In this document: positions 6,898 to 60,151 of the stretch, in pieces | How the letters are laid out: each line of letters starts with the position of its first letter | How positions within the stretch are numbered: position 1 is the first letter of the stretch | The notes under the pieces: generated by a model | Told to the model about the DNA's origin: nothing | Database searches by the model: none | The model's input: the letters and a program-made list of their open reading frames with translations, nothing else | Source: Candidatus Moraniibacteriota bacterium | GTDB lineage: Bacteria; Patescibacteriota; Minisyncoccia; Moranbacterales; GWC2-37-73 | Direction: 5' to 3' | DNA length: 64,000 nt | Assembly: GCA_028715015.1 (NCBI GenBank) | Contig: JAQTLF010000001.1 | Span: 29,243-93,242 of the forward strand | Program-made: the position numbers and the translations under genes

Positions 6898-9204
6898 CTA
6901 TTTTCCGATGATTTTTCCGCCTTGCCCCACCTGGTCAAGCTTCACGGAAAGAAGTTTGGAAATTCCATCATCGCCCATGGTCACACCATAGAGAAGTGAG
7001 GCTTGTCGCATGGTTTCGCGATTATGGGTGATGGCGATGAATTGGGTCGTGCCGGAAAGTTCCTGCAAAATCTTGCTGAAACGTCGCGAGTTGGCTTCAT
7101 CAAGAGCCGCCTCCACTTCATCCAAAATCGCAAATGGCGGTGGGTTGTGAGAAATAATGGCAAAAAGAAGCGCCAAGGAAGTGAGCGATCTTTCGCCGCC
7201 AGAAAGCATGGAAAGATTGGCAATCTTTTTTCCCGGAGGACACGCAAAGATTTCCACTCCGATTTCATCGCGCTTTTCGTCTTCCGATTCCTGATTTTCA
7301 TCTTCCTGCTCATCAATTTCTGTTCCATCCTCAGCAACTTTCGCTTTGCGATTTTTTATTTTCAATTTGATCAGATGCGCATTTCCTCCGCCAAAAATGA
7401 TTCTGAAATATTTGGTGAATTCCTTGTTGATTTTTTCGAAAGCTTCCTCAAATTCAACCTTGATGCGTTGGTCCATTTCTTTGATGATGGCTTCCAAGGA
7501 AACAAGGGCATCAGCCAAATCTTTCAATTCCTGAGTGAGAAAATCAAAACGTGCGTTTGTCTCGCTGTATTCTTCAACGATCATCGGGTCAATTCCGCCG
7601 ATTTGTTCCATCTGAAGTTTCAGGCGTGAAATTTCCCTCTCCAGCATTTCCCTGTTGATCTCTTCACCATCAAATTTGAGCGCGGCAACTTCGCATTTAA
7701 GTTCGCTTCTGATTTCGTTGGTCAGATCTTCTTCGCGCACTTCCACGCGAGCCAGTTTTATTTTGGCATCATTGAATTGGTCTTTCAAAGTGTTGAGCTG
7801 TTCTTGTCTTACTCTGGATTCACGTTCCAATTGGAAAAAACGTTCGCGAAGCTGTCTGATTCTTTGATTTTCAGCCGTGATTTCTTTTTCAATTTTTTCA
7901 AGCTCGTCTCTGAGCTGGGTTTCTTTGAGTTGGAATCCTTTTTTCTTATTTTCAAGTTCTTCAATTTTTTTGTTGATCTCTCCGACTTCTTTGGAGTTGT
8001 CTTTCTTGATGGAAACTTCGCCTTTGCCAGATTCTTCATACAGATCAAAAAGTTGTTGTTGGATGGCCCGGGCAGATTCTTTGATGTCCTGCAAATCATC
8101 CATGTTTTCTGCTTCTTCCACTCGAAGAATCAATCTTTCCTGCGCCATGCGGATGTTGGAAAGCTTGGCTTGCACATATTTCAAATCAACAGGAATGATC
8201 TCGATGACTTTCTGATTGGCAAGTTTTTCTTTCTCAACAACGATGCGTCCTTCGGAAATTATCAGCTCGCGTTCAACATCATTGAGCTGCTGTCTTATTT
8301 GTGTTTTTTTTCTTTCCAACTCCTGTTCAGCTCCGCTATCTTGGGCTTTGCCTGATTCCTGATTGAGTTCATCTGTCATTTTGTCCACTTCGCGTTGCAT
8401 GTTCATCATGCCTGCTCCCAACGATTCTTTTTCTTGGGAAAATTTTTCACGTTCGCTTTGGAATTGATGCCACAAAAAAGAAAACAATTTTGTTTGTTTT
8501 TCTTTGAGTTCTTCGGCCACCACTTTTCCTTGCTGCGCTTTCTCAGCTTGGCGTTTGAGCATTTTCAAATGCGGCTCGATTTCACGGATCAACCCTGAAG
8601 TGCGCTGCATGTTTTCTCTGGTCGAATCGAGTTTTTTGACTGCCCTGTCTTTTTTGATCTGATATTGCTTCACTCCGGCAGCATCTTCCAAAACGCTGCG
8701 GCGATCCGCAGGAGTCGAATTTAGCAATGAGTCAGACATTCCCTGGTTGATAACGCAATAGCTTTCTTTTCCCACTCCAGCTTTGGCCAACAAATCCATG
8801 ACATCCAATAAACGTGAACGATTGCCATTGATCAGATATTCCGACTCTCCGGAACGATACAGTTTTCTAGTGATGATGACCTCCGTGAATTCAAGCGGGA
8901 TTCTTTTGTCGGCATTGTCAAAATGAAGAGAAACTTGGGCGCTGGAAAGACGCGCCTTTGTCCCAGACCCTGCAAAAATGATGTCCTCGGCTTTTTTTCC
9001 GCGCAGTGTTTTCATCGATTGCTCTCCCATCGCCCATTTGATCGCATCAGAGGTGTTGGATTTTCCTGATCCATTTGGTCCCACAATGGCCGTTATTCCG
9101 CGTGCTTCACTATCAACATTAAAATTCCCCGCTGGCAAAAATTCCAGCGTGGTTTTATTGGCAAACGATTTGAATCCTGATATTTCAACTTTTTTTAGAT
9201 ACAT
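6898..9204 (-). CDS. smc: chromosome partition protein SMC (short form, 768 aa)
   Basis: N-terminal Walker A GPNGSGKSN; coiled-coil middle; C-terminal signature LSGGERSLTSLALLFAI and Walker B ILDEVEAALD. Confidence 0.85.
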   Translation of the reverse strand: MYLKKVEISGFKSFANKTTLEFLPAGNFNVDSEARGITAIVGPNGSGKSNTSDAIKWAMGEQSMKTLRGKKAEDIIFAGSGTKARLSSAQVSLHFDNADKRIPLEFTEVIITRKLYRSGESEYLINGNRSRLLDVMDLLAKAGVGKESYCVINQGMSDSLLNSTPADRRSVLEDAAGVKQYQIKKDRAVKKLDSTRENMQRTSGLIREIEPHLKMLKRQAEKAQQGKVVAEELKEKQTKLFSFLWHQFQSEREKFSQEKESLGAGMMNMQREVDKMTDELNQESGKAQDSGAEQELERKKTQIRQQLNDVERELIISEGRIVVEKEKLANQKVIEIIPVDLKYVQAKLSNIRMAQERLILRVEEAENMDDLQDIKESARAIQQQLFDLYEESGKGEVSIKKDNSKEVGEINKKIEELENKKKGFQLKETQLRDELEKIEKEITAENQRIRQLRERFFQLERESRVRQEQLNTLKDQFNDAKIKLARVEVREEDLTNEIRSELKCEVAALKFDGEEINREMLEREISRLKLQMEQIGGIDPMIVEEYSETNARFDFLTQELKDLADALVSLEAIIKEMDQRIKVEFEEAFEKINKEFTKYFRIIFGGGNAHLIKLKIKNRKAKVAEDGTEIDEQEDENQESEDEKRDEIGVEIFACPPGKKIANLSMLSGGERSLTSLALLFAIISHNPPPFAILDEVEAALDEANSRRFSKILQELSGTTQFIAITHNRETMRQASLLYGVTMGDDGISKLLSVKLDQVGQGGKIIGK

Positions 9205-9250
9205 TATTCATGGAGCATGGAGCATGGAGCATGGAGCATAAATCATGAAT
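9205..9250 (-). repeat. heptamer CATGGAG x4 tandem repeat abutting the smc start codon
   Basis: catggagcatggagcatggagcatggagca directly 5' of the smc ATG; it creates clustered upstream AUGs, including a mini-ORF ending in UAAUG that overlaps the start. Confidence 0.8.
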
Positions 9251-9367
9251 GTTGGTGACATCTATATTTGTGCCAGATGTTCCACATTATAAGATTTATG
9301 AATATTGTTCTATGTTCTATGTTTTATGTTCTATGACATTGTACTACACTTTTTTATTTTGGGAAAG

Positions 9368-10394: not shown

Positions 10395-10520
10395 TCAAAT
10401 AAAGTAAAATTTTAGCATAAATCTTAATATCAAAATCCAAATGTCAAATAAAATTCAAAAACCAAAATTTTTAAAAAGTATTTTAGAAATTGAGTCATTT
10501 ATTTAACATTTGTCATTGAG
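10395..10520. repeat. degenerate copy of the AT-rich inverted-repeat family (TTTGGATTTTGTCATTTGG motifs)
   Basis: shares the motifs aaaatccaaatgtcaaataaaat, gagtcatttatt and gtcattgagattttggattt with the repeats at 19606-19746 and 21381-21590. Confidence 0.5.
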
Positions 10521-10529
10521 ATTTTGGAT

Positions 10530-11522
10530 TTAGCGCATTATATACGCTGCCATTTCCACCAAGCGATTAGAATATCCCCACTCATTGTCATACCATCCCA
10601 CAATTTTGACTTGATTTCCCATGCTCATGGTCAAAGGCAGATCAACAATGGAAGAATGTGGATTCATTTTGTAGTCCATGGAAACCAGCTCTTTGGTGGT
10701 CGCATCCAAAATGCCATGCAGGCTTCCCTGAGACGCTTTGACAAAAGCCGCATTGATTTCTTCCACGCTTTTCGGAGTTTTCACTGACGCGATGAAATCA
10801 ACAATTGAAACAACCGGGGTTGGCACACGCAATGCGATTCCGTCCAGCTTGCCGTTGAGATGCGGCATCACCTTTCCCACTGTCTTGGCTGCACCTGTGG
10901 TGGTTGGAATGATTGAAAGAGCAGCAGCGCGAGCGCGACGCAAATCACGATGCGGCAAATCCAAAAGGTTTTGATCGTTGGTATATGAATGTGTGGTGGT
11001 CATGAACCCTTGCTCAACATCACAAAGATCATCCAAAACTTTGATCATCGGAGCCAAACAATTGGTAGTGCAAGATCCATTGGAAACAACCGCCTCGCCC
11101 TTGTACTCTTTTTCATTGACACCCAACAAATATACCGGCACGTCATCTTTTGGCGGCGCGGAAAGAACAACTTTTTTTGCTCCGGCAATGAGATGTTTTC
11201 CAGCCGAAACATTGTCCAAAAAAATTCCCGTGCAATCCAAAACAACATCCACCCCGAGTTTGGCCCAAGGCAAATTCGCAGGATCCTTTTCGGAAAAATA
11301 TTTCACCGGTTTTCCGTCAATGATGATCTCATTGTTTTCTTTGTCAACGACAACTTCCCTGCCATACACTCCATAGGAAGAATCGTATTTGAGCAGATGC
11401 GCACTTGTCTCGATATCAGTCAAATCATTGACCGCCACGATTTCCATCTCTTCTTTTTCAAAAACTATTTTCAGTGATGGTCTGCCAATGCGACCAAAAC
11501 CATTGATTGCAACTTTAAGCAT
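10530..11522 (-). CDS. gap: glyceraldehyde-3-phosphate dehydrogenase (start refined to MLKVAINGFGRIGR)
   Basis: NAD-binding GFGRIGR motif and catalytic SNGSCTTNCLAP motif. Confidence 0.95.
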   Translation of the reverse strand: MLKVAINGFGRIGRPSLKIVFEKEEMEIVAVNDLTDIETSAHLLKYDSSYGVYGREVVVDKENNEIIIDGKPVKYFSEKDPANLPWAKLGVDVVLDCTGIFLDNVSAGKHLIAGAKKVVLSAPPKDDVPVYLLGVNEKEYKGEAVVSNGSCTTNCLAPMIKVLDDLCDVEQGFMTTTHSYTNDQNLLDLPHRDLRRARAAALSIIPTTTGAAKTVGKVMPHLNGKLDGIALRVPTPVVSIVDFIASVKTPKSVEEINAAFVKASQGSLHGILDATTKELVSMDYKMNPHSSIVDLPLTMSMGNQVKIVGWYDNEWGYSNRLVEMAAYIMR

Positions 11523-11567
11523 GCATGTAGCATGTATCATGTAGCATGTATCATGTATAAATGCACT
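11523..11567 (-). repeat. heptamer CATGTAG/CATGTAT tandem repeat abutting the gap start codon
   Basis: catgtagcatgtatcatgtagcatgtatcatg, period 7. Confidence 0.8.
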
Positions 11568-11622
11568 TAATGCGCCATCCTATACATAATACTTGATACA
11601 AGAATACTTTATACTTAATTTA

Positions 11623-11898
11623 TTAATTTCCTTCAATTTCCGTCAGATGCCAATGATTGCCTTGGATGGTTTTGATGTTGAATTTTGTTTTTTCCAAAAT
11701 GGTTCCCTTGGCGATGTTTTTGATTCCGAATTTCAAATTTTCAATGCTGATGTCTTCGACATGTTCATCAAGTCCGTCGTGCGCCAATGCGATCTGTCCG
11801 ATTTCAAGATTGACATGTTCGATCTGTGAAAGTTTCTCGCTCTTCACAATTTTCATGATGTCATCAACAATTTCCTTGGCCAACATAAAATCATGCAT
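11623..11898 (-). CDS. HypA-like hydrogenase maturation protein lacking the Zn-finger cysteines (tentative)
   Basis: about 92 aa; N-terminal MHDFMLAKEIVDDI and C-terminal IQGNHWHLTEIEG resemble HypA, but it has no CxxC pairs; adjacent to the [NiFe]-hydrogenase genes. Confidence 0.35.
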   Translation of the reverse strand: MHDFMLAKEIVDDIMKIVKSEKLSQIEHVNLEIGQIALAHDGLDEHVEDISIENLKFGIKNIAKGTILEKTKFNIKTIQGNHWHLTEIEGN

Positions 11899-11945
11899 GA
11901 GTTCATGTAACATGTAGCATATAGCATGTAGCATTTGAGACACGA
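11899..11945 (-). repeat. heptamer CATGTAA/CATGTAG/CATATAG repeat abutting the hypA-like start
   Basis: catgtaacatgtagcatatagcatgtagca, period 7. Confidence 0.75.
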
Positions 11946-11994: not shown

Positions 11995-13257
11995 TTAGTG
12001 TACCGCACAACTGATGCACGGATCATAGGCACGGATGAAAGCGCGCATTTTTCTTTCCATAGCTTTTTCATCTTTGCTCAGAATTCCTGGAATAAATGCC
12101 GCGATATCATCTTCCAAATGTGTCAAAAATTGGGCAGTCGGAGTGATGATGTTCACATTTTTGATATATCCTTTTTCGTCGATGTCAACCCAATAATACA
12201 AAGTTCCGCGTGGCGCCTCGACGGCGGCGGCTGCAGATCCTTCACGAACGACATATTCCTTAGTGATGGCATTTTCCAAATTTGCATGCGTCAACTCTTT
12301 CAATAATTGCAATGAATCCTCAACGCAATGGATCACCTCTGTCATTTGATACAGCACGTTGTGGAATGGATTGTAGTCAGGCATGTTGAAATTCAAGCTT
12401 TTCAAAAATTCCCGTGCGCCGTGACTGAGTTTTTCATGGTTGTTATTGACTCGTGCAATGGCTCCAACCATGTAGCTTGTTTTTCCATCATGCATGACGC
12501 GTTTGATGATTTCTTTCGGCCGTTGGAATTCATGGAAGTTTTCTTCGAATTTTTGCACATCCACATGCAATCCCTTGTTGGAAACGACATCTCCATCATA
12601 GATGGCATATTCCCCTTTTGTTTTCAGACAGACATATTCCGTGGGACGACTGAAATCAGGAGTTTTGATCGTGCGGAAAAAGGCCGCCAATTCCAAAGTG
12701 ATCGGAAGTGTTTCTTGAGCCTTTAAAATCAAACTTTTCAATTCATCTTGGGTGGGAACTTTTTTGAATCCTCCAACTTCATTGGTGAGCGGATGCACCA
12801 CGCGACCGCCAATGACCTTGATGATTTCCATGCCATATTCACGAATCTTCACCGCCATCTTTGTCTGTTCCGGATAGGCTTTCACCAGATCCATGTCATT
12901 TTCAATGTCCAAAAAATCTGCCAACGACAAAAAGAAAAGATGCAGCGCGTGTGAATGGATGAACTGGGCATGCTCCATGACCTTCCTGAGTTTTTCAGTT
13001 TCCGGACTTACCTCAATTTTCATGGCATTTTCAATGGCTTTGATTGCAGTCAGGTTGTGCACCACCGGACAAATGCCGCAAATTCTTTGCGCGATTGTCG
13101 GCATGTCTTTGTAGTGCCTTCCCACCAAGACGCCCTCGATAAGTCTGATTCCTTCCTGCACTTCAAATTTGGCAGATTTCACATCTCCCTTAATAACACT
13201 GGCCATAAAACCAGTGTGTCCTTCAATTTTTGCAATGTGATTTATTTTTATATTCAT
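11995..13257 (-). CDS. [NiFe]-hydrogenase large subunit (cytoplasmic group 3-like; start refined to MNIKINH)
   Basis: N-terminal RICGICPVVH (RxCGxCxxxH) and C-terminal DPCISCAVH (DPCxxCxxH) Ni-Fe ligand motifs. Confidence 0.9.
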   Translation of the reverse strand: MNIKINHIAKIEGHTGFMASVIKGDVKSAKFEVQEGIRLIEGVLVGRHYKDMPTIAQRICGICPVVHNLTAIKAIENAMKIEVSPETEKLRKVMEHAQFIHSHALHLFFLSLADFLDIENDMDLVKAYPEQTKMAVKIREYGMEIIKVIGGRVVHPLTNEVGGFKKVPTQDELKSLILKAQETLPITLELAAFFRTIKTPDFSRPTEYVCLKTKGEYAIYDGDVVSNKGLHVDVQKFEENFHEFQRPKEIIKRVMHDGKTSYMVGAIARVNNNHEKLSHGAREFLKSLNFNMPDYNPFHNVLYQMTEVIHCVEDSLQLLKELTHANLENAITKEYVVREGSAAAAVEAPRGTLYYWVDIDEKGYIKNVNIITPTAQFLTHLEDDIAAFIPGILSKDEKAMERKMRAFIRAYDPCISCAVH

Positions 13258-13292
13258 AATTTCATGTAGCATGCAACATGTATCATGTAACA
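13258..13292 (-). repeat. heptamer CATG repeat abutting the hydrogenase large-subunit start
   Basis: catgtagcatgcaacatgtatcatgtaac; creates a mini-ORF whose UGA overlaps the start (AUGA). Confidence 0.75.
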
Positions 13293-13337
13293 AGCACGGT
13301 TTTTTGAATTTTTGTTTTATGCTATATGTTATACGCT

Positions 13338-17679: not shown

Positions 17680-18729
17680 TTATAGCTGCTTTCTTAAAAA
17701 TTCGGCTGCCACTTCGGGTTGAAGAGTTGAGATTTCAATTCCAGTGTCCAATTCAAATCCTGCCCAATTCGCCGTATGCGGCAAAATTTCAATGTGCCAA
17801 TGAAAATTTTTATAATCCTGACCATCGCAAGGCGCCGTGTGGATGTAAAAATTGTAAGGCGGATCATTCAAGGCTTTATAAACCGATCCAAGCGCTTTAC
17901 TGAAAACTTCTGCCAGTGAAACTTTCTGCTCATCCGTGATGCGTTCAAAATATGGACTGTGGAATTTTGGCATCACATGCACTTCAAAGGCCGCTCTCGA
18001 AGCAAATGGGCAAAAGGCAATGAAATCATCATTTTCAAAAACGATTCTTTTCTTTTCCAAACTTTCATGTTCGATCACTGTGCAAAAAACACAATGCTTG
18101 TTGCTTTTGTGATATTTTTTTGCTCCATCCAATTCAAGTTGGATGTAGGGTGCAACCACAGGAATTGCCATCAATTGTGAATGTGGATGAGAAATCGATG
18201 CACCAGCTTCCTTGCCATGATTGTGAAAAATGGCGATATAATTCACATTTTTCTTGTTCATCAGATCAAGATATCTGTCCTGGTAAGCATCAAAAACTTC
18301 AGCAATTTCCATAACATCCATAATCGCCAATTGCCTGTAATGATCGCGCGTCACCACGATTTCATGATATCCCAAGCCGGCCATCGCCACATATGGTCCT
18401 TCGGAAACAGGATGCTCCAATTTTCCCTGGGAAAATGCCGGATATTTATTGGGAAAAACACGCAGCGTCCAATCTCCGTCAGCTTTGTGATAGATCAAAA
18501 CATCTTTTTCTTGTCCTGAAGCGACAGGATCTTCAAAAAGACATTCGTGGATTCCTTTGTCATCTTTGATTCTTTCAAAATTCGCAAAATCATCCGGCCG
18601 CTTGGCACGACCAGTGGCAATCACCACCCAATCACCAGAAACAATGTCCTGCCTCAATTCAGAAGCTGGAATTATTTTTGATTCTTCCTCATCTTTATTT
18701 TTTTCCAAATTGTTAATTGAGATGTTCAC
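17680..18729 (-). CDS. galactose-1-phosphate uridylyltransferase-like (GalT/HIT superfamily)
   Basis: 349 aa tandem HIT-like halves; active-site HPHSQ (HxHxQ). Confidence 0.7.
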   Translation of the reverse strand: MNISINNLEKNKDEEESKIIPASELRQDIVSGDWVVIATGRAKRPDDFANFERIKDDKGIHECLFEDPVASGQEKDVLIYHKADGDWTLRVFPNKYPAFSQGKLEHPVSEGPYVAMAGLGYHEIVVTRDHYRQLAIMDVMEIAEVFDAYQDRYLDLMNKKNVNYIAIFHNHGKEAGASISHPHSQLMAIPVVAPYIQLELDGAKKYHKSNKHCVFCTVIEHESLEKKRIVFENDDFIAFCPFASRAAFEVHVMPKFHSPYFERITDEQKVSLAEVFSKALGSVYKALNDPPYNFYIHTAPCDGQDYKNFHWHIEILPHTANWAGFELDTGIEISTLQPEVAAEFLRKQL

Positions 18730-18774
18730 AATTTTTATTTTTTTGTTTTTTTATTTTCTCCCGATTGCTGGTCA

Positions 18775-19524: not shown

Positions 19525-19605
19525 TGTTTTGATTTTATTCTATTGATTAAATTATCTTATCTAAAGTATAGCATATTATGGCAAAAAGACCACACTACGT
19601 CCAAA

Positions 19606-19746
19606 GATACAATGACCAAAAAATCTCAAATCTCAATTTCCAATGTCAAATAAAATCCAAAATCTCAAATCCTAAAAATTTTTTAGACATTTTGGCTTGA
19701 GTCATTTATTGGAAATTTGGATTTTGTCATTTGGATTTTAGTTTGA
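19606..19746. repeat. left arm of a long inverted repeat flanking the ruvX-map segment
   Basis: 19649-19746 is the exact reverse complement of 21381-21479; 19606-19648 matches RC(21547-21590) with one mismatch. Confidence 0.9.
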
Positions 19747-19770
19747 TGTTTGTTTCTTGTATCTTGTTGT

Positions 19771-20178
19771 TTAAAGAATTTGATTGTCCAGCCAGCTTTG
19801 CAAAATGATCCGGGCCGCTTCTTGATCATCAAGATTGGCGATGTTTGTGCCGCCTCGCATCTTGATGTTTTCCTGGGCCATCTTGGTCGTGAACATCTCT
19901 TCTTGGAATTCAATCCTGATTCCAGTTTCTTTTTCAAGCATTTTGGCAAAATCCAATTTCTCCTGGACGCTTTGCTGGTCTTTGTCGTGCTTGGTCATGC
20001 CAAGAACGATCGTTTTGACATTCTCACACGCAACAATTTCTTTTAAGTTACTGCGAAAGTCTTTGTCATTTTTGAGCGTATCAAAAGCAAAGGCCATTTT
20101 GGTCTCCTCATCAGCAATGGCCAATCCAATCTTGCTTTGACCATAATCTATACCCAAAATTGTGCTTATTTGAGCCAT
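19771..20178 (-). CDS. ruvX: Holliday-junction resolvase-like YqgF/RuvX (start refined to MAQISTILGIDYG)
   Basis: ILGIDYGQSKIGLA N-terminal motif and RNase H-like fold pattern. Confidence 0.8.
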   Translation of the reverse strand: MAQISTILGIDYGQSKIGLAIADEETKMAFAFDTLKNDKDFRSNLKEIVACENVKTIVLGMTKHDKDQQSVQEKLDFAKMLEKETGIRIEFQEEMFTTKMAQENIKMRGGTNIANLDDQEAARIILQSWLDNQIL

Positions 20179-20204
20179 ATTTTTCATTTTCATGCTTATT
20201 TTGC

Positions 20205-20233
20205 TTGACATTTTCATTATATCATGCTAATAT
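20205..20233 (+). promoter_or_regulatory. strong sigma70-type promoter
   Basis: TTGACA (20205-20210), 17-bp spacer, TAATAT (20228-20233). Confidence 0.6.
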
Positions 20234-20283
20234 TATTAAAACAAAAAGCAGTAAAAATCCAATAACAAGCGGAGGTAGCACCA

Positions 20284-20520
20284 ATGGAACCAATGGTTAT
20301 CCTAGGTCTCGTCATCGTTGTGTATGGTTTTTACATTTCTCATAAGGATGACGACTTGTTCTGCATCCGAATGCTTAAAAAAGTAATGCGATTCAATTCA
20401 CCCAAGGTGGAAAAGATTCTAGCAAAAGAATCCAAACCGCCTATTGGTAGAGTTGTGAAAAGCAGCGAGAGTATTTCCTACGTGCAGGTCGGACATCAAC
20501 AAGTACGACTATACCACTAA
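20284..20520 (+). CDS. small membrane-anchored protein (78 aa), stand-alone plus-strand transcription unit
   Basis: GGAGGT SD 8 nt upstream of the ATG; single N-terminal TM helix (MEPMVILGLVIVVYGFYI); own promoter and terminator. Confidence 0.6.
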   Translation: MEPMVILGLVIVVYGFYISHKDDDLFCIRMLKKVMRFNSPKVEKILAKESKPPIGRVVKSSESISYVQVGHQQVRLYH

Positions 20521-20544
20521 GAAGCTATGCGCTGCGTCATCAAT

Positions 20545-20586
20545 TGTGCACATTTCGTCAAAGACGATTTTGTGCACTTTTTTTAT
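20545..20586 (+). terminator. rho-independent terminator
   Basis: GTGCAC...TCGTCaaaGACGA...GTGCAC nested hairpin followed by T8. Confidence 0.65.
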
Positions 20587-21347
20587 TGTGTCAAAACTTC
20601 AACTCCATTTTTTGTTATCAAAATAGTATTTTCATAATGGGCGGAAAGTTTTCGGTCGGCTGTTAAAAACACCCAACCATCTGGTCCGATAGAATTGAGA
20701 TGTGTGCCGACATTCACCATGGGCTCCAATGCCAAAGTCATTCCTTCCTGCAAAACCAGATCCCTGAAACCTTTTTCAAAATAGTTGGGAACTTGCGGAT
20801 CTTCGTGAAGATTCCTGCCGATGCCATGACCGACCAAATTTTTCACCACTGAAAAACCAGCTGATTCGATTGTTTGCTGGGCAGCCTTGGAATAGTCGCT
20901 GAGTTTTGCTCCGGCTTTCAGATTCTTGATGCCTTTCCAAAATGATTTTTCTGTGATTTCAATCAGTTTTTGAGCTTCATTGCTGATTTTTCCCACAGCG
21001 AATGTGCGTGCCATGTCAGAATAGAATCCTTCGATTTCGATGCCCAAATCAACTTTGAAAATATCCCCTTCTTCCAAAATCCTGTCGTCACTGGGAATGC
21101 CATGCACGATTTCATCATTGATTGACGCGCAGATTGTGGCTGGAAACGGATTGCTGCGGTCTCCATATCCCTTGAAAGCTGGCGTGCCTCCAGAGCGCAA
21201 AATCAGCTCTTCAGCGAGCTTGTCGATCTGCATCGTGCTCACACCCGGACACACTTCGGCTTCAATTTCACGCATAACTTCAGCCAAAGCTTTGCCAGCC
21301 CGACGCATGATATTCAACTCAAATTCACTTTTTATATGTATAGACAT
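20583..21347 (-). CDS. map: methionine aminopeptidase, type I
   Basis: MetAP pita-bread fold with the conserved metal-ligand Asp/His/Glu pattern. Confidence 0.95.
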   Translation of the reverse strand: MSIHIKSEFELNIMRRAGKALAEVMREIEAEVCPGVSTMQIDKLAEELILRSGGTPAFKGYGDRSNPFPATICASINDEIVHGIPSDDRILEEGDIFKVDLGIEIEGFYSDMARTFAVGKISNEAQKLIEITEKSFWKGIKNLKAGAKLSDYSKAAQQTIESAGFSVVKNLVGHGIGRNLHEDPQVPNYFEKGFRDLVLQEGMTLALEPMVNVGTHLNSIGPDGWVFLTADRKLSAHYENTILITKNGVEVLTQ

Positions 21348-21380
21348 ATTTTATCAATAATAAAGATACAAGAAGCAAAT

Positions 21381-21590
21381 ATCAAACTAAAATCCAAATG
21401 ACAAAATCCAAATTTCCAATAAATGACTCAAGCCAAAATGTCTAAAAAATTTTTAGGATTTGAGATTTTGGATTTTATTATCAAACGTAGCGAGTGTAAT
21501 AAAAAATTTTTTATTACCGAGCAAGTGCAGATAATATGGTAACCCATATTTGACATTGGAAATTGGGATTTGAGATTTTTTGGTTATTGT
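21381..21590. repeat. right arm of the long inverted repeat (carries a 67-bp internal insertion at 21480-21546)
   Basis: reverse complement of 19606-19746; the insertion contains the perfect palindrome GTAATAAAAAATTTTTTATTAC. Confidence 0.9.
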
Positions 21591-21604
21591 TTTTTGTTTC
21601 CTGA

Positions 21605-22246: not shown

Positions 22247-22300
22247 GTTTTAGCTTTTTAGGCTTTAGCTTCTTAGCTTCTTAGCTTCTTGAAAAACTCA
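22247..22300 (-). repeat. octamer AAGAAGCU x3-5 repeat abutting the adk start
   Basis: minus-strand sense caAGAAGCTAAGAAGCTAAGAAGCTAAAGCCTAAAAAGCTAAAAC-ATG. Confidence 0.75.
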
Positions 22301-23624: not shown

Positions 23625-23720
23625 AATAGCTTCTCAGCTTCTTAGCCTTTCAGCTTCTTAGCTTTAAAGATAGCATTAGTTTTTTTAATTTCCTAAGAAG
23701 CTAACAAGCTAATGCCTCAG
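23625..23720 (-). repeat. octamer/nonamer GCTAAGAAG-type repeats upstream of secY
   Basis: sense ...AAGCTAAGAAGCTGAAAGGCTAAGAAGCTGAGAAGCTATTTGAA-ATG. Confidence 0.7.
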
Positions 23721-23723
23721 AAG

Positions 23724-24161
23724 CTACTCTAGGATTTTTCCACCTGCTTTGATTATAGCATCTTTGGCAGTTTGTGAAAGAAGTATTTCTGCTGAAATAG
23801 TAAGTTTTTTGGCAATTGTTCCGCTGGCAAGAATCTTTAGACCGTTTTTAACGTCAGCCTTGTCCACAATTTTTGCTCCAAGCAAAGTTTCAACCGAAAT
23901 GATGTCATTGTCTTTGAAAGCTTTTTCCAAAGTTTCCAATTTTATCACAGTTTTCTTGGCATTAAGAGATTTGAAACCTCGCACTTTTTTCAAGCGTTCA
24001 ACAAGTGAAGATCGTCCACCTTCAAACAACGGATCGATTGATGCTCCAGAGCGAGCTTTCTGACCTTTGTTTCCACGACCAGAATAAGTTCCGCGCTTTC
24101 CGCCACGACCAACTGTTTTTTTGTCCTTGCGTTTTTTTACTTTAAGTTGATGAATTTGCAT
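23724..24161 (-). CDS. rplO: 50S ribosomal protein L15
   Basis: Gly/Arg-rich N-terminus (GRGGKRGTYSGRG) and position between rpsE and secY. Confidence 0.9.
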   Translation of the reverse strand: MQIHQLKVKKRKDKKTVGRGGKRGTYSGRGNKGQKARSGASIDPLFEGGRSSLVERLKKVRGFKSLNAKKTVIKLETLEKAFKDNDIISVETLLGAKIVDKADVKNGLKILASGTIAKKLTISAEILLSQTAKDAIIKAGGKILE

Positions 24162-24241
24162 AAATTTAACTTATAACTTATAACTAACCACTTATAACGA
24201 ATTTTTACGTATTTCTGTTGTTTGTTATTTGTTATTGGTAA

Positions 24242-24760: not shown

Positions 24761-24805
24761 AATTATCATTAATCATGGAACATGGAGCATGGAACAAAAA
24801 TTCCA
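24761..24805 (-). repeat. heptamer CATGGAA/CATGGAG repeat abutting the rpsE start
   Basis: aatcatggaacatggagcatggaac. Confidence 0.8.
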
Positions 24806-24852
24806 ATCTGCCACACAATGTTCTATGTTTTATGCTCTATGTTATGTGTTAT

Positions 24853-25203: not shown

Positions 25204-25245
25204 AATTTATAATGAATCATGGAACATGGAGCATGGAACATATTT
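25204..25245 (-). repeat. heptamer CATGGAA/CATGGAG repeat abutting the rplR start
   Basis: aatcatggaacatggagcatggaaca; a mini-ORF stop (UGA) overlaps the start (AUGA). Confidence 0.8.
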
Positions 25246-25287
25246 TTTATTATCTTGCTCTATGCTTTATGCTCTATGTTATGTGAT

Positions 25288-26591: not shown

Positions 26592-26677
26592 AATTTATCG
26601 TGAAACGTGGGGCGCGTAGCGTGGAGCGTTTGCATTCCTACGTTATGCGTTTTACGTTATGCGTTTTACCCTTTTAC

Positions 26678-31814: not shown

Positions 31815-31898
31815 AATATTTTTTAGGTTTTAGCTTTTTAGCCTTTAGCTTTTCAGGAAAAACCTGAGAAGCTTAGAAGCTAATGCCTGAACAGCTAT
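31815..31898 (-). repeat. octamer AAAAAGCU-type repeats abutting the rplB start
   Basis: sense GAAAAGCTAAAGGCTAAAAAGCTAAAACCTAAAAAATATT-ATG. Confidence 0.7.
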
Positions 31899-33767: not shown

Positions 33768-34100
33768 TTACATCTTTATTTCCACATCAACTCCAGCTGG
33801 CAAATCAAGACTGGTGAGGTTCTCAATTGTCTTGGCGGTTGGATCCCAGATATCAATCAGGCGTTTGTGAATTCGCATTTCGTACTGGTCTCTTGCATCC
33901 TTATATACGAAAGTCGATTTATTCACAGTAACCTTATGGATTTCTGTTGGAAGCGGTACAGGTCCAGTGAATTTTGATCCGCTACGTTCAACAGTTTCCA
34001 CTATTTTACGTGCAGATTGATCAATCACTTTGCTGTCATAAGCTTTGATCTTGATCCTTATTCTTGTAGCTTGTTCGTTTTCTGTTTTTTTCGCAGCCAT
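33768..34100 (-). CDS. rpsJ: 30S ribosomal protein S10
   Basis: IRIKIKAYD...PTAKTIENL motifs. Confidence 0.95.
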
Positions 34101-34191
34101 CTGAGTCTTTTAAATAAACGATTAAAATTATTGTTCAGGTTAACAGTCGCAAGCATGAGATGAATCTCATGCCTGCTCAATTATCTGAAAA

Positions 34192-44082: not shown

Positions 44083-45338
44083 TCAGCCAGCTCATATTCC
44101 AAATCAAGTTCAGCTTCACTTTTGTTGTCAACCAATCTTATTGCAGGATAAAGTCCGATCAAAACCAAGCCAGCCACCAACAAAAATATGTACTTCATCG
44201 GAGCGATGATGAGCAGCATCGCTGAAACTCCAGTGGCCACCATATAGGCAACCGCTCTGGTGGTGCGAAAAAAACTTATAAGATCGACATCGCGTCCATC
44301 GATTTTTTTGTAAAAATATGAATCTCTCAGTGTTTCGACCGTAGCAGCCCCGATGCGTGTGGACAAAAGCACCAATGACCAAACAACGATTGAAACGGAA
44401 TGGATGAAAAAAATGGAAGCGGATGATACGCCCATCAAGAGCAAGCCCATGATGATCATTTCCTTTTCCCCGAATTTTTTGTCAGCCAAAAACCCTATCG
44501 GATATTCCAAAACGACAAACGGAATCAGCATCACCGTGAAAACGACACCGATTTGTTGCCATGAAAGTCCCAGATCAAGCAGGTACAAAGGCGTGTAGAC
44601 AATCATCAAGGCATAGAAAGCTTCCAATGCGAGTGAAATCACATAGATGTTCAGCACATCTTTGTTGGTCAGAATTTTCAAACCGACATCTTTGATGGTG
44701 AGCTGACCGCGAAATTTTCCACTGACATCACTGAGTCCGATCAAACCGATCACAAACATGACAACATTGAGCACCAATGTTGCAACAAACAGACCATCAA
44801 AACCGAAGTCGGAAAGAATTTTTGTCGAAAGAAACGGCCCCAGCAAAACTCCCGCACTCAAAATCATCAAATGAAATCCGCGTATTCTGCCGGATTTTTT
44901 ATCCTCTGAATATTCCTCAATGATGACATCCAGAATGACCCAGACGAAATAGTTGGCGACGATGTAGAGCATCAAAAAAATTATGCCCAAAAGCGACGGC
45001 TTGATGAAAATCAAACCGACCAAAAAACATATCTGCGCGAAAAAAAACAAGAAAAATGACATGGCCTTGCCTATTTTTTTGACAACCTTGTGCATGTTAA
45101 GCAAACCGATCAAAGCAATCACATAAGTTATGAAATAGAAGGAGCTGACATTTTCATTGCCAAGAGCATTTCGGAAATAATCCGAAGTGACATAGAGCAG
45201 CAATGCTTGCGCAAATCCGAACAAAAAAGAAATCAGACCCAAAAGTTCCAATTTCTTTTTCCCGTTTTTCTTGCTTTTTACTTGTTTTTTGTTGGCCATT
45301 TTTTTATTTTTATTCACCAATAATGAGGTCATGCACAA
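44079..45338 (-). CDS. MFS transporter (track start is TTG; ATG candidates at ~45332 or MANKKQ)
   Basis: 12-TM major-facilitator topology. Confidence 0.75.
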   Translation of the reverse strand: MCMTSLLVNKNKKMANKKQVKSKKNGKKKLELLGLISFLFGFAQALLLYVTSDYFRNALGNENVSSFYFITYVIALIGLLNMHKVVKKIGKAMSFFLFFFAQICFLVGLIFIKPSLLGIIFLMLYIVANYFVWVILDVIIEEYSEDKKSGRIRGFHLMILSAGVLLGPFLSTKILSDFGFDGLFVATLVLNVVMFVIGLIGLSDVSGKFRGQLTIKDVGLKILTNKDVLNIYVISLALEAFYALMIVYTPLYLLDLGLSWQQIGVVFTVMLIPFVVLEYPIGFLADKKFGEKEMIIMGLLLMGVSSASIFFIHSVSIVVWSLVLLSTRIGAATVETLRDSYFYKKIDGRDVDLISFFRTTRAVAYMVATGVSAMLLIIAPMKYIFLLVAGLVLIGLYPAIRLVDNKSEAELDLEYELAD

Positions 45339-45508
45339 TATATGGTTTCAAATATTAACTTTTGTTTTTTGCTTTGCCTGTTTTCTTTTGAGGCCATCCG
45401 CAGCGAGAGCAAGGACGAGCGAGCAATCATAGTTCTTCGATTGCGAAGCGTGCCGAAAAAGGAAATAGGCAAAGCAAAAAAAGTCAGAGAAAACTATATA
45501 TTGCGCAT
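45332..45508. mobile_element. MITE-like element copy 1 (~177 bp, imperfect 15-17-bp TIRs, GC-richer core)
   Basis: about 90% identical, in inverse orientation, to 59965-60144; the TIR resembles TGCACAATATATGG ... CTATATATTGCGCA. Confidence 0.75.
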
Positions 45509-45583
45509 TAACCCAATAATGCTGTTTTATAAGTTGTCACTGAAGAATCAAATCTGAGAAATGATTCTTCAGTGACACAAGTT

Positions 45584-48087: not shown

Positions 48088-48387
48088 ATGAAAAGTATGC
48101 TAATAGTTATTGTTTCGTTTTCTCTCTTTGCGTGTACAAACATATTTGATCGCACTACTAAAGGTTTAGTTCAGGCGATTGGCAAAAACAGTGTCACTTT
48201 ATCTACAGAAAAAGAATTAGTATCCATAGAAAATATTGAAAACTTGGAAGCATATCAGACTGAACTTGCAAATTTCAAAAAATCAAATCGACAAATTGTA
48301 ATTTATTACTACGAGCAACGAACTCGTAAAATTTCAACAGGAGATGATACATGGTACAAAACAATAACAAAAATTGTTAAAAAATAA
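48088..48387 (+). CDS. small predicted lipoprotein
   Basis: GGAGG SD; signal peptide with lipobox LFAC; 99 aa. Confidence 0.55.
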   Translation: MKSMLIVIVSFSLFACTNIFDRTTKGLVQAIGKNSVTLSTEKELVSIENIENLEAYQTELANFKKSNRQIVIYYYEQRTRKISTGDDTWYKTITKIVKK

Positions 48388-48497: not shown

Positions 48498-48821
48498 TTA
48501 TTTTTTAAACAACTTTCCAAAAAAAATTGTTATTTCTCCAACTAGACGTGGTGAGAAAAATGCCAAAAATAACCATACCAGGACAAAAAGGATGTTTATT
48601 TTAATAATTCCATATAGACCAATTAAAAACAACACTAGCATCATAACCTTGCGACTTGAGTCGACTGGTAACCACGAACTAAGTATAGCCCCAGCAAGTT
48701 GAGATTTTAATTGTTCAAATTTAGCCTTCTCTTGGTCTGTTAAATTCAAATCTTTGTTTTTTAATGCTTCATCAATTTTAAGAAATGTTGTCTTTAATTG
48801 GTCGTGTTGATTTTTATTCAT
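48498..48821 (-). CDS. hypothetical small membrane protein
   Basis: 107 aa; soluble N-terminus plus two TM helices. Confidence 0.45.
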   Translation of the reverse strand: MNKNQHDQLKTTFLKIDEALKNKDLNLTDQEKAKFEQLKSQLAGAILSSWLPVDSSRKVMMLVLFLIGLYGIIKINILFVLVWLFLAFFSPRLVGEITIFFGKLFKK

Positions 48822-48973
48822 ATCATTTGTTTAAAAATAATCTTGCTTAACTTATGAGTTGCATATTTCTTGCTTTACAATATGCTAAATACATTATCAC
48901 ATTCTAATGCATAAATAACATAACAAAAGTTATCCATTATCAAAACTTTGTGCAAAATTGCGGGTTTGTATTT

Positions 48974-59948: not shown

Positions 59949-59964
59949 TTGAAATTTATTGGTT

Positions 59965-60144
59965 CATACGCAATATATGGTTCTCTCTGACTTTTTTGCT
60001 TAGCCTATTTCCTTTTTCGGCACGCTTCGCAGTCGCAAGACCATGACTACTCGCTCGTCCTCGCTGTCGCTGCGGATGGCCTCAAAAGAAAACAGGCAAA
60101 GCAAAAAAACAAAAGTTAATATTTGAAATCATATATTGCGTATG
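59965..60144. mobile_element. MITE-like element copy 2 (180 bp, perfect 15-bp TIRs CATACGCAATATATG)
   Basis: TIRs at 59965-59979 and 60130-60144; sub-terminal inverted motifs TTTTTTGCTTAGCC / GGCAAAGCAAAAAAA; GC-rich core. Confidence 0.8.
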
Positions 60145-60151
60145 AGCCAAA

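What the first reader, a model, noticed from the sequence alone, without database searches (positions are those of the whole stretch)
20195..20586. A self-contained plus-strand unit encoding a 78-aa single-TM protein sits between ruvX and map
This is the only clear plus-strand gene in a 30-kb minus-strand region. It has a near-consensus promoter (TTGACA-17-TAATAT), one of the few canonical GGAGG SD sequences in the window, a 78-aa ORF with an N-terminal TM helix followed by a charged tail, and a strong terminator whose hairpin overlaps the map stop codon. The architecture (strong promoter, small hydrophobic protein, convergent with essential genes) resembles type I toxin or small regulatory membrane proteins.
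Basis: partly seen in the sequence, partly recalled or inferred. Interest (0 to 1): 0.5.

Follow-up and report, generated by a model that had tools for sequence, protein, structure and literature searches.

The report
Orphan small membrane-protein gene slot
Between the housekeeping genes map and ruvX of this Moranbacteria (candidate phyla radiation) genome sits a probably real, separately promoted and terminated gene for a 78-residue membrane-anchored protein; it occupies a conserved expression slot whose control signals persist across relatives while the encoded small membrane proteins change almost beyond recognition.

Summary
On the + strand at 20205-20584 there is an extended -10 promoter, a GGAGG Shine-Dalgarno that is rare in this genome, a 78-aa ORF with one N-terminal TM helix and a basic tail, and an intrinsic terminator. 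The terminator's T-tract, not its hairpin, overlaps map's stop codon. The ORF alone is weak evidence: its length occurs by chance in 14% of simulations, its codon usage is atypical, and exhaustive protein searches found nothing. Synteny settles it. All 13 Moranbacteria loci with a map-ruvX gap carry the same antisense unit (promoter with 17-nt spacer, small TM ORF, hairpin plus T-run; AGGAG-type SD in 11). The window ORF's first 17 residues are significantly similar to P0006 (z 6.5), and 7 of the 10 identical residues use different codons. P0006 and its relative in L083 are under purifying selection (dN/dS 0.21, p 6e-7). The window's 59-residue tail matches nothing. The slot ORFs fold more stably than ordinary genes (p 2e-4). 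The promoter survives in two relatives that lack any ORF. Type I toxin membership is not supported: size, spacing and copy-number criteria fail, and no separate sRNA gene is seen. The function is unknown. Verdict: a probably real, lineage-restricted small membrane-protein gene of moderate interest.

The parts
20205..20233 (+). Sigma-70-type promoter: -35 TTGACA (20205-20210), 17-nt spacer, TG extension (20225-20226) and -10 TAATAT (20228-20233). The predicted transcription start is near 20240.
   Evidence: Both hexamers and the TG are conserved in position, with an exact 17-nt spacer, in L083 and L099. All 12 other gap-containing loci have an equivalent promoter.
20240..20283 (+). Predicted 5' leader of about 44 nt. 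It contains the conserved block AAACAAAAA at the predicted start site and the Shine-Dalgarno GGAGG (20271-20275), 8 nt upstream of the ATG.
   Evidence: A canonical SD is exceptional in this window.
20284..20520 (+). ORF of 78 aa (stop TAA at 20518-20520). Residues 1-19 form the N-terminal TM helix (nt 20284-20340). Residues 20-78 form a basic hydrophilic tail with no detectable relative.
   Evidence: The head is homologous to P0006. The tail has no match in any frame. AF2 gives H3-19, H24-38, H40-48 and three short strands at 56-77, with mean pLDDT 63.
20546..20584 (+). Intrinsic terminator: a hairpin at 20546-20577 (a 7-bp and a 5-bp stem separated by an internal loop) followed by T7 at 20578-20584. 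It works in one direction only, because the minus-strand reading has no U-run after the hairpin.
   Evidence: Every gap-containing relative has an equivalent GC-rich hairpin plus T-run at the same place.
19771..20178 (-). ruvX, the divergent neighbour. Its probable start is the ATG at 20176-20178, 27 nt from the -35 hexamer of the small gene's promoter.
   Evidence: Pfam PF03652. The start is inferred from where conservation ends.
20583..21347 (-). map (methionine aminopeptidase), the convergent neighbour. Its stop codon (20583-20585) overlaps the end of the small gene's T-tract. No minus-strand intrinsic terminator follows it.
   Evidence: Pfam PF00557.

Best explanation
This is a real, independently transcribed gene for a lineage-restricted small bitopic membrane protein. 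It sits in an old expression slot between map and ruvX.

The extended -10 promoter abuts ruvX's start and fires away from it. A strong SD, which is unusual for this genome, drives translation of a 78-aa product. Residues 3-19 of that product insert as a membrane anchor. The basic 59-residue tail most likely stays in the cytoplasm, by the positive-inside rule (inference). The terminator stops the roughly 345-nt transcript exactly at map's stop codon.

Across Moranbacteria the promoter, SD, open frame, N-terminal TM segment and terminator are maintained, while the protein bodies diverge fast or are replaced. In the window's own lineage the TM head is conserved and the tail has been remodelled.

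The biochemical role is unknown. My best guess is an accessory membrane-anchored peptide that acts at the cytoplasmic face of the membrane.

A likely side effect, inferred and not shown, follows from the layout. In relatives that lack the unit, ruvX follows map directly, and no terminator follows map on its own strand. Transcription of the small gene therefore runs convergent and antisense to any map-to-ruvX read-through and should dampen it.
For: **Signals.** Searches show the promoter, SD and terminator. One search shows that an SD is rare in this genome.

**Conserved architecture.** The synteny adk-map-gap-ruvX-GT2 is shared. The same antisense architecture is found in all 13 gap-containing loci, counting the window. 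The naive combined probability of open frames that long is about 1e-29.

**Where conservation falls.** DNA alignments show it on the -35, the -10, the start-site block, the SD and the ATGGAA start, but not on the ORF body.

**Homology of the head.** Window versus P0006 gives SW 52, z 6.5, 0 of 5000 shuffles. A shuffle that keeps the hydrophobic segment together gives z 5.4, 1 of 5000. Of the 10 identical residues in the first 17, 7 use different codons.

**Selection in the slot.** L083 versus L099 gives dN/dS 0.21, Fisher p 5.6e-7, against 0.06 for Map. L002 versus L003 gives 0.49.

**Other support.** Gene callers call the relatives' ORFs (P0001-P0006). GC and AT skew switch sign across 20200-20600.
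Against: - No homologue was found by word-indexed search of 5.8e9 proteins or by exhaustive phmmer of 1.84e9 representatives. The metagenome contigs gave none either.
- Codon usage is below every real-gene window (-0.03 against 0.38 +/- 0.11). The selected relatives score just as low, however.
- An ORF of this length is not rare by chance (14%).
- The 59-residue tail has no relative and could be a recent, unselected extension. The probability that it stays open by chance is about 0.02.
- The promoter persists in L081 and L017 without any ORF, so the promoter may have a role independent of the protein.
- There are no expression data.
Confidence: 0.6

Rival explanations
1. The unit works mainly at the RNA or transcription level. 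A conserved strong promoter next to ruvX fires against the map operon and terminates at map's stop. This insulates or tunes ruvX and GT2 expression through polymerase collision and antisense pairing. The ORFs are secondary passengers, kept open mainly so that translation stabilises the transcript.
For: - The promoter is retained next to ruvX in L081 (11/12 plus TG) and in distant L017 (11/12 plus TG), with no ORF downstream.
- Conservation falls on the signals and not on the ORF body.
- There is excess RNA structure: the full window transcript has z -4.3 to -4.9, and 12 slot ORF bodies average -2.4 against -0.47 for ordinary windows, Mann-Whitney p 1.9e-4.
- No minus-strand terminator follows map.
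- ruvX abuts map in L007.
Against: - A strong SD and an ATG are kept in 11 of 13 loci, in a genome that rarely uses an SD.
- Every product has an N-terminal TM segment.
- Purifying selection acts on amino acids in L083/L099 (dN/dS 0.21).
- There is synonymous divergence under conserved residues in the window's head.
- The two roles are not mutually exclusive.
Confidence: 0.17
2. It is a type I toxin-like module. The small membrane peptide is harmful when made. Its highly structured mRNA is held in check by a cis-antisense RNA, here the read-through transcript from map toward ruvX instead of a dedicated sRNA.
For: - A TM helix plus a polar and aromatic C-terminus (VGHQQVRLYH).
- A strongly structured mRNA.
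- A patchy, accessory distribution: the unit is absent in L081, L007 and L062.
- Rapid sequence turnover.
- Full-length antisense overlap with any map-to-ruvX read-through (inference).
Against: - The unit fails criteria from Fozo et al. 2010: 78 aa against under 60-70; 105 and 62 nt from its neighbours against >400 and >250; no tandem copies.
- No separate antisense promoter plus terminator was found.
- Pairing of the SD appears only in the MFE structure and not in the centroid.
- Slot proteins in relatives reach 111-125 aa with two TM helices or a soluble domain.
- The tail is under purifying selection in L083/L099, which suggests a specific interaction and not mere membrane damage.
- There is no match to PADLOC or Pfam toxin models.
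Confidence: 0.12
3. The window's 78-codon frame is a decaying or accidental ORF. The ancestral L083/L099-type gene lost its tail through indels, and what remains is an expressed but functionless remnant.
For: - Only residues 1-17 are alignable.
- The tail's codon score is -0.08.
- An ORF of this length arises by chance in 14% of simulations.
- The L083-L099 rate predicts about 60% identity to the window, but the tail shows none.
Against: - All the expression signals are intact and near consensus.
- The chance that 58 further codons stay open is about 0.02.
- The length (78 against 75-76 aa), the basic charge and the terminal ...L-Y/S-H are preserved.
- The excess mRNA structure is as strong as in relatives.
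Confidence: 0.11

Closest known systems
Type I toxin-antitoxin toxins (Hok, Ldr/Fst, TisB, Ibs, TxpA and others; search criteria of Fozo et al. 2010, PMC2887945)
   Same: A small protein with one TM helix and a polar and aromatic C-terminus. It is encoded in an intergenic gap with its own strong promoter. The mRNA is highly structured. Sequence conservation is poor and the distribution is patchy. There is potential for cis-antisense pairing.
   Different: At 78 aa it is longer than the 60-70 aa limit and has a 59-residue hydrophilic tail. It lies 105 and 62 nt from its neighbours instead of >400 and >250. It is single-copy. No dedicated sRNA gene was found. There is no sequence match to any toxin family. 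Toxicity is untested.
Bacterial small membrane proteins that modulate larger membrane proteins (for example AcrZ, MgtS, KdpF; from general knowledge)
   Same: A single N-terminal TM helix, fewer than 100 aa, and its own SD-led ORF.
   Different: Those proteins are usually conserved with, or encoded next to, their partner. Here the neighbours (map, ruvX) are cytoplasmic housekeeping enzymes and no partner is evident. Sequence turnover is also far faster.
Orphan or de novo small membrane-protein genes arising in transcribed intergenic DNA (a concept from the yeast and bacterial orphan-gene literature; recalled, not read here)
   Same: No homologues outside a narrow clade, atypical codon usage, a TM-rich product, and a location in a constitutively transcribed intergenic slot. 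The window's tail appears lineage-specific.
   Different: The head of the protein and the whole expression apparatus are old and conserved. AT skew over the ORF is about zero, so a thymine-rich origin of the TM segment is not indicated. De novo origin was not demonstrated.
Slot-mate families in relatives: the two-TM 'P-x-L/W-W' family (L001, L002, L003, L082 = P0001-P0004) and the one-TM basic-tail family (L083 = P0005, L099 = P0006)
   Same: Identical genomic position, strand, promoter type, SD, terminator, excess mRNA structure and atypical codon usage. The window's residues 1-17 are homologous to P0006.
   Different: There is no detectable similarity to the two-TM family (hhalign probability 0.2%). 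The window's tail does not align with the P0005/P0006 tail in any frame.

Membership tests
Type I toxin (operational criteria of Fozo et al. 2010, PMC2887945) | Protein shorter than about 60-70 aa | tested here: not met
   78 aa. The criteria were read.
Type I toxin (operational criteria of Fozo et al. 2010, PMC2887945) | At least one predicted transmembrane region (at least 10 of 15 residues from I, V, L, F, C, M, A) | tested here: met
   11 of 15 from residue 4, and KD19 of 1.85.
Type I toxin (operational criteria of Fozo et al. 2010, PMC2887945) | C-terminus rich in polar, charged or aromatic residues | tested here: met
   The last 10 residues are VGHQQVRLYH, of which 7 are non-hydrophobic.
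Type I toxin (operational criteria of Fozo et al. 2010, PMC2887945) | [quoted passage not shown] | tested here: not met
   105 nt to ruvX's start and 62 nt to map's stop.
Type I toxin (operational criteria of Fozo et al. 2010, PMC2887945) | Tandem or multiple copies of the locus | tested here: not met
   No repeat of the ORF in the region or the window. No second SD-led unit of this design was found.
Type I toxin (operational criteria of Fozo et al. 2010, PMC2887945) | A dedicated antisense sRNA antitoxin that pairs with the toxin mRNA | tested here: inconclusive
   The only minus-strand promoter-like site (20594-20567) lies in map coding sequence and is not conserved in L083. No minus-strand terminator was found. 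Read-through from map could supply antisense RNA, but that is inference and needs RNA-seq.
Type I toxin (operational criteria of Fozo et al. 2010, PMC2887945) | Toxicity on overexpression | not testable with these tools
   Requires an experiment.
Any curated protein family (Pfam-A, NCBIfam, PHROGs, PADLOC) | Profile match above the curated or significance threshold | tested here: not met
   Pfam gave no hits. The best NCBIfam hit had E 0.16. PHROGs gave none. The best PADLOC hit was Cas1b at E 0.012 and 12.9 bits, which is spurious.
Known structured RNA gene (Rfam 15, tRNA, tmRNA) | Covariance-model or ARAGORN match in 20195-20586 | tested here: not met
   No match in the interval even at E up to 10. 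No tRNA or tmRNA in the window.
One-TM basic-tail slot family (P0005/L083, P0006/L099) | Homologous N-terminal TM segment at the same locus with the same promoter, leader and start | tested here: met
   SW z 6.5 (0 of 5000 shuffles). 10 of 17 residues are identical, 7 of them through synonymous codons. The -35, -10, SD and ATGGAA are conserved.
One-TM basic-tail slot family (P0005/L083, P0006/L099) | Homologous C-terminal tail (FDLLPKNLFRP...KNLF+RK.FLKRK...YFVTLSH) | tested here: not met
   No significant alignment in frame or out of frame (best off-frame E 0.9). Only the length, the basic charge and the terminal L-x-H are shared.
Two-TM 'P-x-L/W-W' slot family (P0001-P0004) | Profile similarity | tested here: not met
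   hhalign probability 0.2%. Pairwise z scores are about 0.

The most novel reading that the evidence does not exclude
The map-ruvX gap of Moranbacteria is a permanently switched-on expression cassette. Its promoter, SD and terminator have been conserved over deep divergence, and the promoter even outlives the ORF. Inside it, the coding body is repeatedly remodelled or replaced. This would make it a natural cradle for the birth and turnover of small membrane proteins, with the window's 59-residue tail being a newly arisen sequence. The same unit would act as an antisense brake between the ribosomal-protein/secY/adk/map operon and ruvX.
Probability: 0.2. Interest if true: 0.65.

Novelty: new member of a known kind. 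Interest (0 to 1): 0.4.

Why it matters
Small membrane proteins are under-annotated everywhere, and in candidate phyla radiation bacteria they are almost entirely uncharacterised. This locus shows that synteny of the expression signals (promoter, SD, terminator) can validate an ORF that homology searches and codon statistics would reject. It also offers a compact natural system for comparing how fast a small protein's anchor and tail evolve while its control elements stay fixed. If the antisense-brake or toxin-like readings were confirmed, it would be a rare example of operon-internal regulation in these reduced genomes. As it stands, it is a useful annotation correction and a modest evolutionary curiosity, not a new mechanism.

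Tried and rejected
1. **Hidden RNA gene.** I tested for tmRNA, RNase P, 6S, SRP RNA or a riboswitch under the strong promoter and terminator. There was no Rfam match at E up to 10 and no tRNA or tmRNA.
2. **Direct homology.** All searches came back empty: the word-indexed search, exhaustive phmmer, metagenome tblastn, Pfam, NCBIfam, PHROGs and PADLOC.
3. **Repeat element under the ORF.** The ORF contains 'KILAK', which resembles translations of a 100-126-nt element shared by the gaps of L001, L004, L006 and L014. An nhmmer profile of that element finds nothing in the window's gap. Rejected.
4. **One family for all slot ORFs.** Only L002-L003 (z 13.9), L002-L082 (z 6.8) and L001-L082 (z 3.0) are related. 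The window matches none of these.
5. **Frameshifted tail.** The window's tail is not a frameshifted L083/L099 tail.
6. **SD sequestration in the leader.** It appears only in the MFE structure, not in the centroid, and the leader alone folds no better than shuffles (z -0.4).
7. **Bidirectional terminator.** The minus-strand reading has no U-run.
8. **Invertible segment.** A 117-nt, 98% inverted repeat brackets ruvX-ORF-map. The arms belong to a conserved intergenic repeat family that relatives carry at the same positions, and the gene order matches the relatives. I found no evidence of inversion.
9. **Structure prediction.** The single-sequence AF2 model was too weak (pLDDT 63, pTM 0.28) to justify a fold search.
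10. **Timed-out run.** The first attempt at the folding calibration timed out and was rerun.

Full report
**1. What is in the sequence**

- -35 TTGACA at 20205-20210, a 17-nt spacer, and -10 TAATAT at 20228-20233. A TG at 20225-20226 makes this an extended -10 promoter.
- GGAGG at 20271-20275, 8 nt before the ATG.
- A 78-codon ORF at 20284-20520.
- A hairpin at 20546-20577 (7 + 5 bp, centroid about -16 kcal/mol) followed by seven T at 20578-20584.

The neighbours are RuvX (PF03652) and methionine aminopeptidase (PF00557), both on the minus strand.

Two corrections are needed. The T-tract, not the hairpin, overlaps map's stop codon at 20583-20585. ruvX most likely starts at the ATG at 20176-20178 rather than 20217, because conservation with the closest relatives stops there.

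The product has a hydrophobic segment at residues 3-19 (11 of 15 residues hydrophobic; KD19 1.85). Its 59-residue tail has 12 K/R and 6 D/E.

**2. Is it more than chance?**

Taken alone, the ORF is weak evidence:
- 14% of random 366-nt sequences of this composition hold an ORF of at least 78 aa.
- Its codon-usage score (-0.03) is below every 78-codon window of the genome's long genes (0.38 +/- 0.11).

The signals are not weak:
- Only three + strand sites in 64 kb reach this promoter quality.
- GGAGG occurs five times on the + strand.
- Most housekeeping genes here have A/T-rich leaders without an SD.
- GC and AT skew turn neutral to positive across 20200-20600 only, as expected for a + strand gene among minus-strand genes.

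**3. It is not a known RNA or protein**

No Rfam family, tRNA or tmRNA matches the interval. No Pfam, NCBIfam, PHROG or PADLOC family matches the protein. The word-indexed search of 5.8 billion proteins, an exhaustive phmmer of 1.84 billion representatives, and a tblastn-confirmed scan of metagenome contigs all returned nothing. The window's genome itself appears not to be in those collections, since its exact Map product is not on record.

**4. The decisive evidence is comparative**

Map places the window in Candidatus Moranbacteria. The order adk-map-gap-ruvX-GT2 is shared.

Thirteen loci, counting the window, have a gap of more than about 300 nt between map and ruvX: the window, L001, L002, L003, L004, L006, L014, L034, L036, L082, L083, L085 and L099. 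In every one, the strand opposite to map and ruvX carries:
- a TTGAC(A/T)-17-TAnnAT promoter next to ruvX's start, usually with a TG extension;
- an AGGAG-type SD in 11 of the 13 (L002 and L003 have an A-rich leader instead);
- an ORF of 40-125 aa whose first 30 residues contain a TM segment;
- a GC-rich hairpin plus T-run just before map's stop.

The naive combined probability that frames this long stay open from the chosen ATG is about 1e-29.

The proteins are mostly unrelated in sequence. One two-TM family links L001, L002, L003 and L082. In 5.8 billion proteins it has only four clusters, all annotated hypothetical at best.

**5. The window ORF has relatives after all**

The closest locus, L083 (Map 83%), has near-identical -10, start-site block, SD and ATGGAA start, and a 76-aa ORF. 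The ORF body aligns only at background level. That ORF is a called protein, P0005, with one homologue, P0006 (68% identity). P0006 sits on contig L099, again convergent with map and behind the same promoter and leader.

P0006 links the two. Window residues 1-17 match it at 10 of 17 positions. The Smith-Waterman score is 52, with z 6.5 and 0 of 5000 shuffles reaching it. When the hydrophobic head is shuffled only within itself, z is 5.4 and 1 of 5000 shuffles reaches it. Seven of the ten identical residues use different synonymous codons, and four of the seven replacements are conservative. The conservation is therefore at the protein level and is not carry-over from the conserved leader DNA.

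Between L083 and L099 the small ORF is 69% identical with dN/dS 0.21 (30 synonymous and 35 non-synonymous differences over 52 and 173 sites; Fisher p 5.6e-7). Map in the same pair gives 0.06. L002 versus L003 gives 0.49. Proteins in this slot are thus selected as proteins, though weakly.

The window's tail (residues 20-78) aligns with the P0005/P0006 tail in no frame. Length, basic charge and the terminal L-Y/S-H are similar. At the L083-L099 rate I would expect about 60% identity, so the tail has been remodelled in the window's lineage. That last step is inference.

**6. Shared odd properties of the slot genes**

- All of them score low on the window's codon model (-0.30 to +0.12), including L083 and L099, which are under selection. 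The membrane protein SecY scores 0.36. Low codon adaptation therefore does not argue against coding.
- Their mRNAs are unusually structured. The full window transcript folds at -95.2 kcal/mol against -74.5 +/- 4.2 for shuffles, z -4.3 to -4.9. For the ORF body alone z is -3.1 to -4.0. The 12 slot ORFs tested (L099 was not included) average -2.4 against -0.47 +/- 1.3 for 40 ordinary windows (Mann-Whitney p 1.9e-4).
- The promoter is older than any particular ORF. L081 (Map 80%, gap about 60 nt) and distant L017 (Map 48%, gap about 85 nt) keep an 11/12 TG-extended promoter beside ruvX pointing at map, with no ORF. L007 and L062 lack it.

**7. How it most likely works**

Shown by sequence and comparison:
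- a self-contained unit of about 345 nt;
- a translated small protein whose N-terminal helix is under selection;
- an accessory, patchy distribution.

Inferred:
- The helix anchors the protein in the membrane with the basic tail in the cytoplasm, by the positive-inside rule.
- AF2 without an alignment gives helix 3-19, two further helices and a short C-terminal beta-meander at low confidence (pLDDT 63, pTM 0.28).
- map has no terminator on its own strand, and ruvX directly follows map in relatives without the unit. ruvX transcription must therefore either cross the unit or start inside it. The small gene's strong convergent transcription should then interfere with ruvX transcription and pair with its RNA.

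I give 0.6 to 'real small membrane-protein gene of unknown role'. The rivals get 0.17 for a primarily RNA or transcriptional role, 0.12 for a toxin-like role, and 0.11 for a functionless remnant.

**8. Comparison with type I toxins**

I used the criteria stated by Fozo et al. 2010 (PMC2887945).
- Passed: a TM segment and a polar and aromatic C-terminus.
- Failed: size (78 aa against under 60-70), spacing (105 and 62 nt against >400 and >250) and copy number.
- Not found: a dedicated antisense sRNA gene.
- Also against: slot-mates of 111-125 aa with two TM helices or a soluble domain, and purifying selection on the L083/L099 tail, fit poorly with simple membrane-damaging peptides.

It should not be filed as a type I toxin. 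A toxin-like action is not excluded.

**9. Novelty and interest**

The protein family is new: three members, of which only the head is shared with the window. The kind, a lineage-restricted small membrane protein, is familiar. The more interesting point is the conserved expression slot with a changeable coding body and a promoter that outlasts it. That point rests on 13 loci and no expression data. Interest is 0.4.

Noticed in passing
window 19604-19765 and 21363-21595 (third, diverged copy at 10402-10531): A 117-nt, 98% complementary inverted repeat, plus a second arm pair of 49 nt at 92%, brackets exactly the ruvX-smallORF-map segment. The element is itself a quasi-palindrome built from AAATCC/AAATCTC-like units. 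The copy upstream of map carries an extra insert of about 70 nt. Relatives carry copies at the same intergenic positions: adk-map in L001, L003 and L006, and ruvX-GT2 in L083 at about 80% identity over 193 nt. There is no Rfam match and the function is unknown.
   Followed up: partly
window 9189-9254, 11518-11569, 11898-11935, 13257-13294, 24761-24841, 25205-25285, 26593-26630; also 22251-22296, 23681-23726, 31863-31897: Many intergenic spacers, including those in the ribosomal-protein gene cluster, contain tandem heptamer-type repeats (CATGGAG/CATGTAG or AAGCTA/TAGCTT units). These are often arranged as imperfect long hairpins. This looks like a genome-wide family of intergenic repeat elements.
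   Followed up: no
L001:4831-4956, L006:4980-5098, L004:4871-4972 (reverse orientation), partly L014:4863-4947: A conserved element of about 100-126 nt (GCCATATGAAGTACGTAGGCAAAGCGC...AAATTTTAGCCAAGA.CGTAGCACTTGCCCC) sits in the map-ruvX gaps of several relatives in either orientation. It has no Rfam match and is absent from the window.
   Followed up: partly
L081:1094-1175 and L017:1990-2045: Two relatives with almost no map-ruvX gap still carry an 11/12, TG-extended sigma-70 promoter beside ruvX's start that points into map's 3' end, with no ORF downstream. In L017 a T-run overlaps map's stop, which suggests a very short non-coding transcript.
   Followed up: partly
window 20216-20225 (minus strand): The minus strand reads TGATATAAT here, a perfect extended -10 element, about 40 nt upstream of ruvX's probable start. 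It lies inside the spacer of the small gene's promoter, which suggests overlapping divergent promoters. It is not conserved in L083. (Read directly; compared.)
   Followed up: partly
window 48088-48387 (+): A second SD-led plus-strand small ORF of 99 aa, starting MKSMLIVIVSFSLFACTNIF..., with a lipobox-like LFAC. It is a possible lipoprotein and lies between minus-strand genes.
   Followed up: no
window, gene starts throughout (for example 17683-18732, 23727-24164, 33771-34103, 48501-48824): Most housekeeping genes have A/T-rich leaders with no Shine-Dalgarno motif at the first start codon. A canonical SD is the exception in this genome.
   Followed up: partly
window 45329-45520 and 59954-60145: Another long inverted repeat, with arms of 122 nt at 90% plus adjacent arms of 42-44 nt, separated by about 14.5 kb.
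   Followed up: no
L062:1925-2065: The map-ruvX spacer of this distant relative is a long near-perfect palindrome (gtcattgcgaggagc...gccttctcgcaatgac) instead of a small gene.
   Followed up: no
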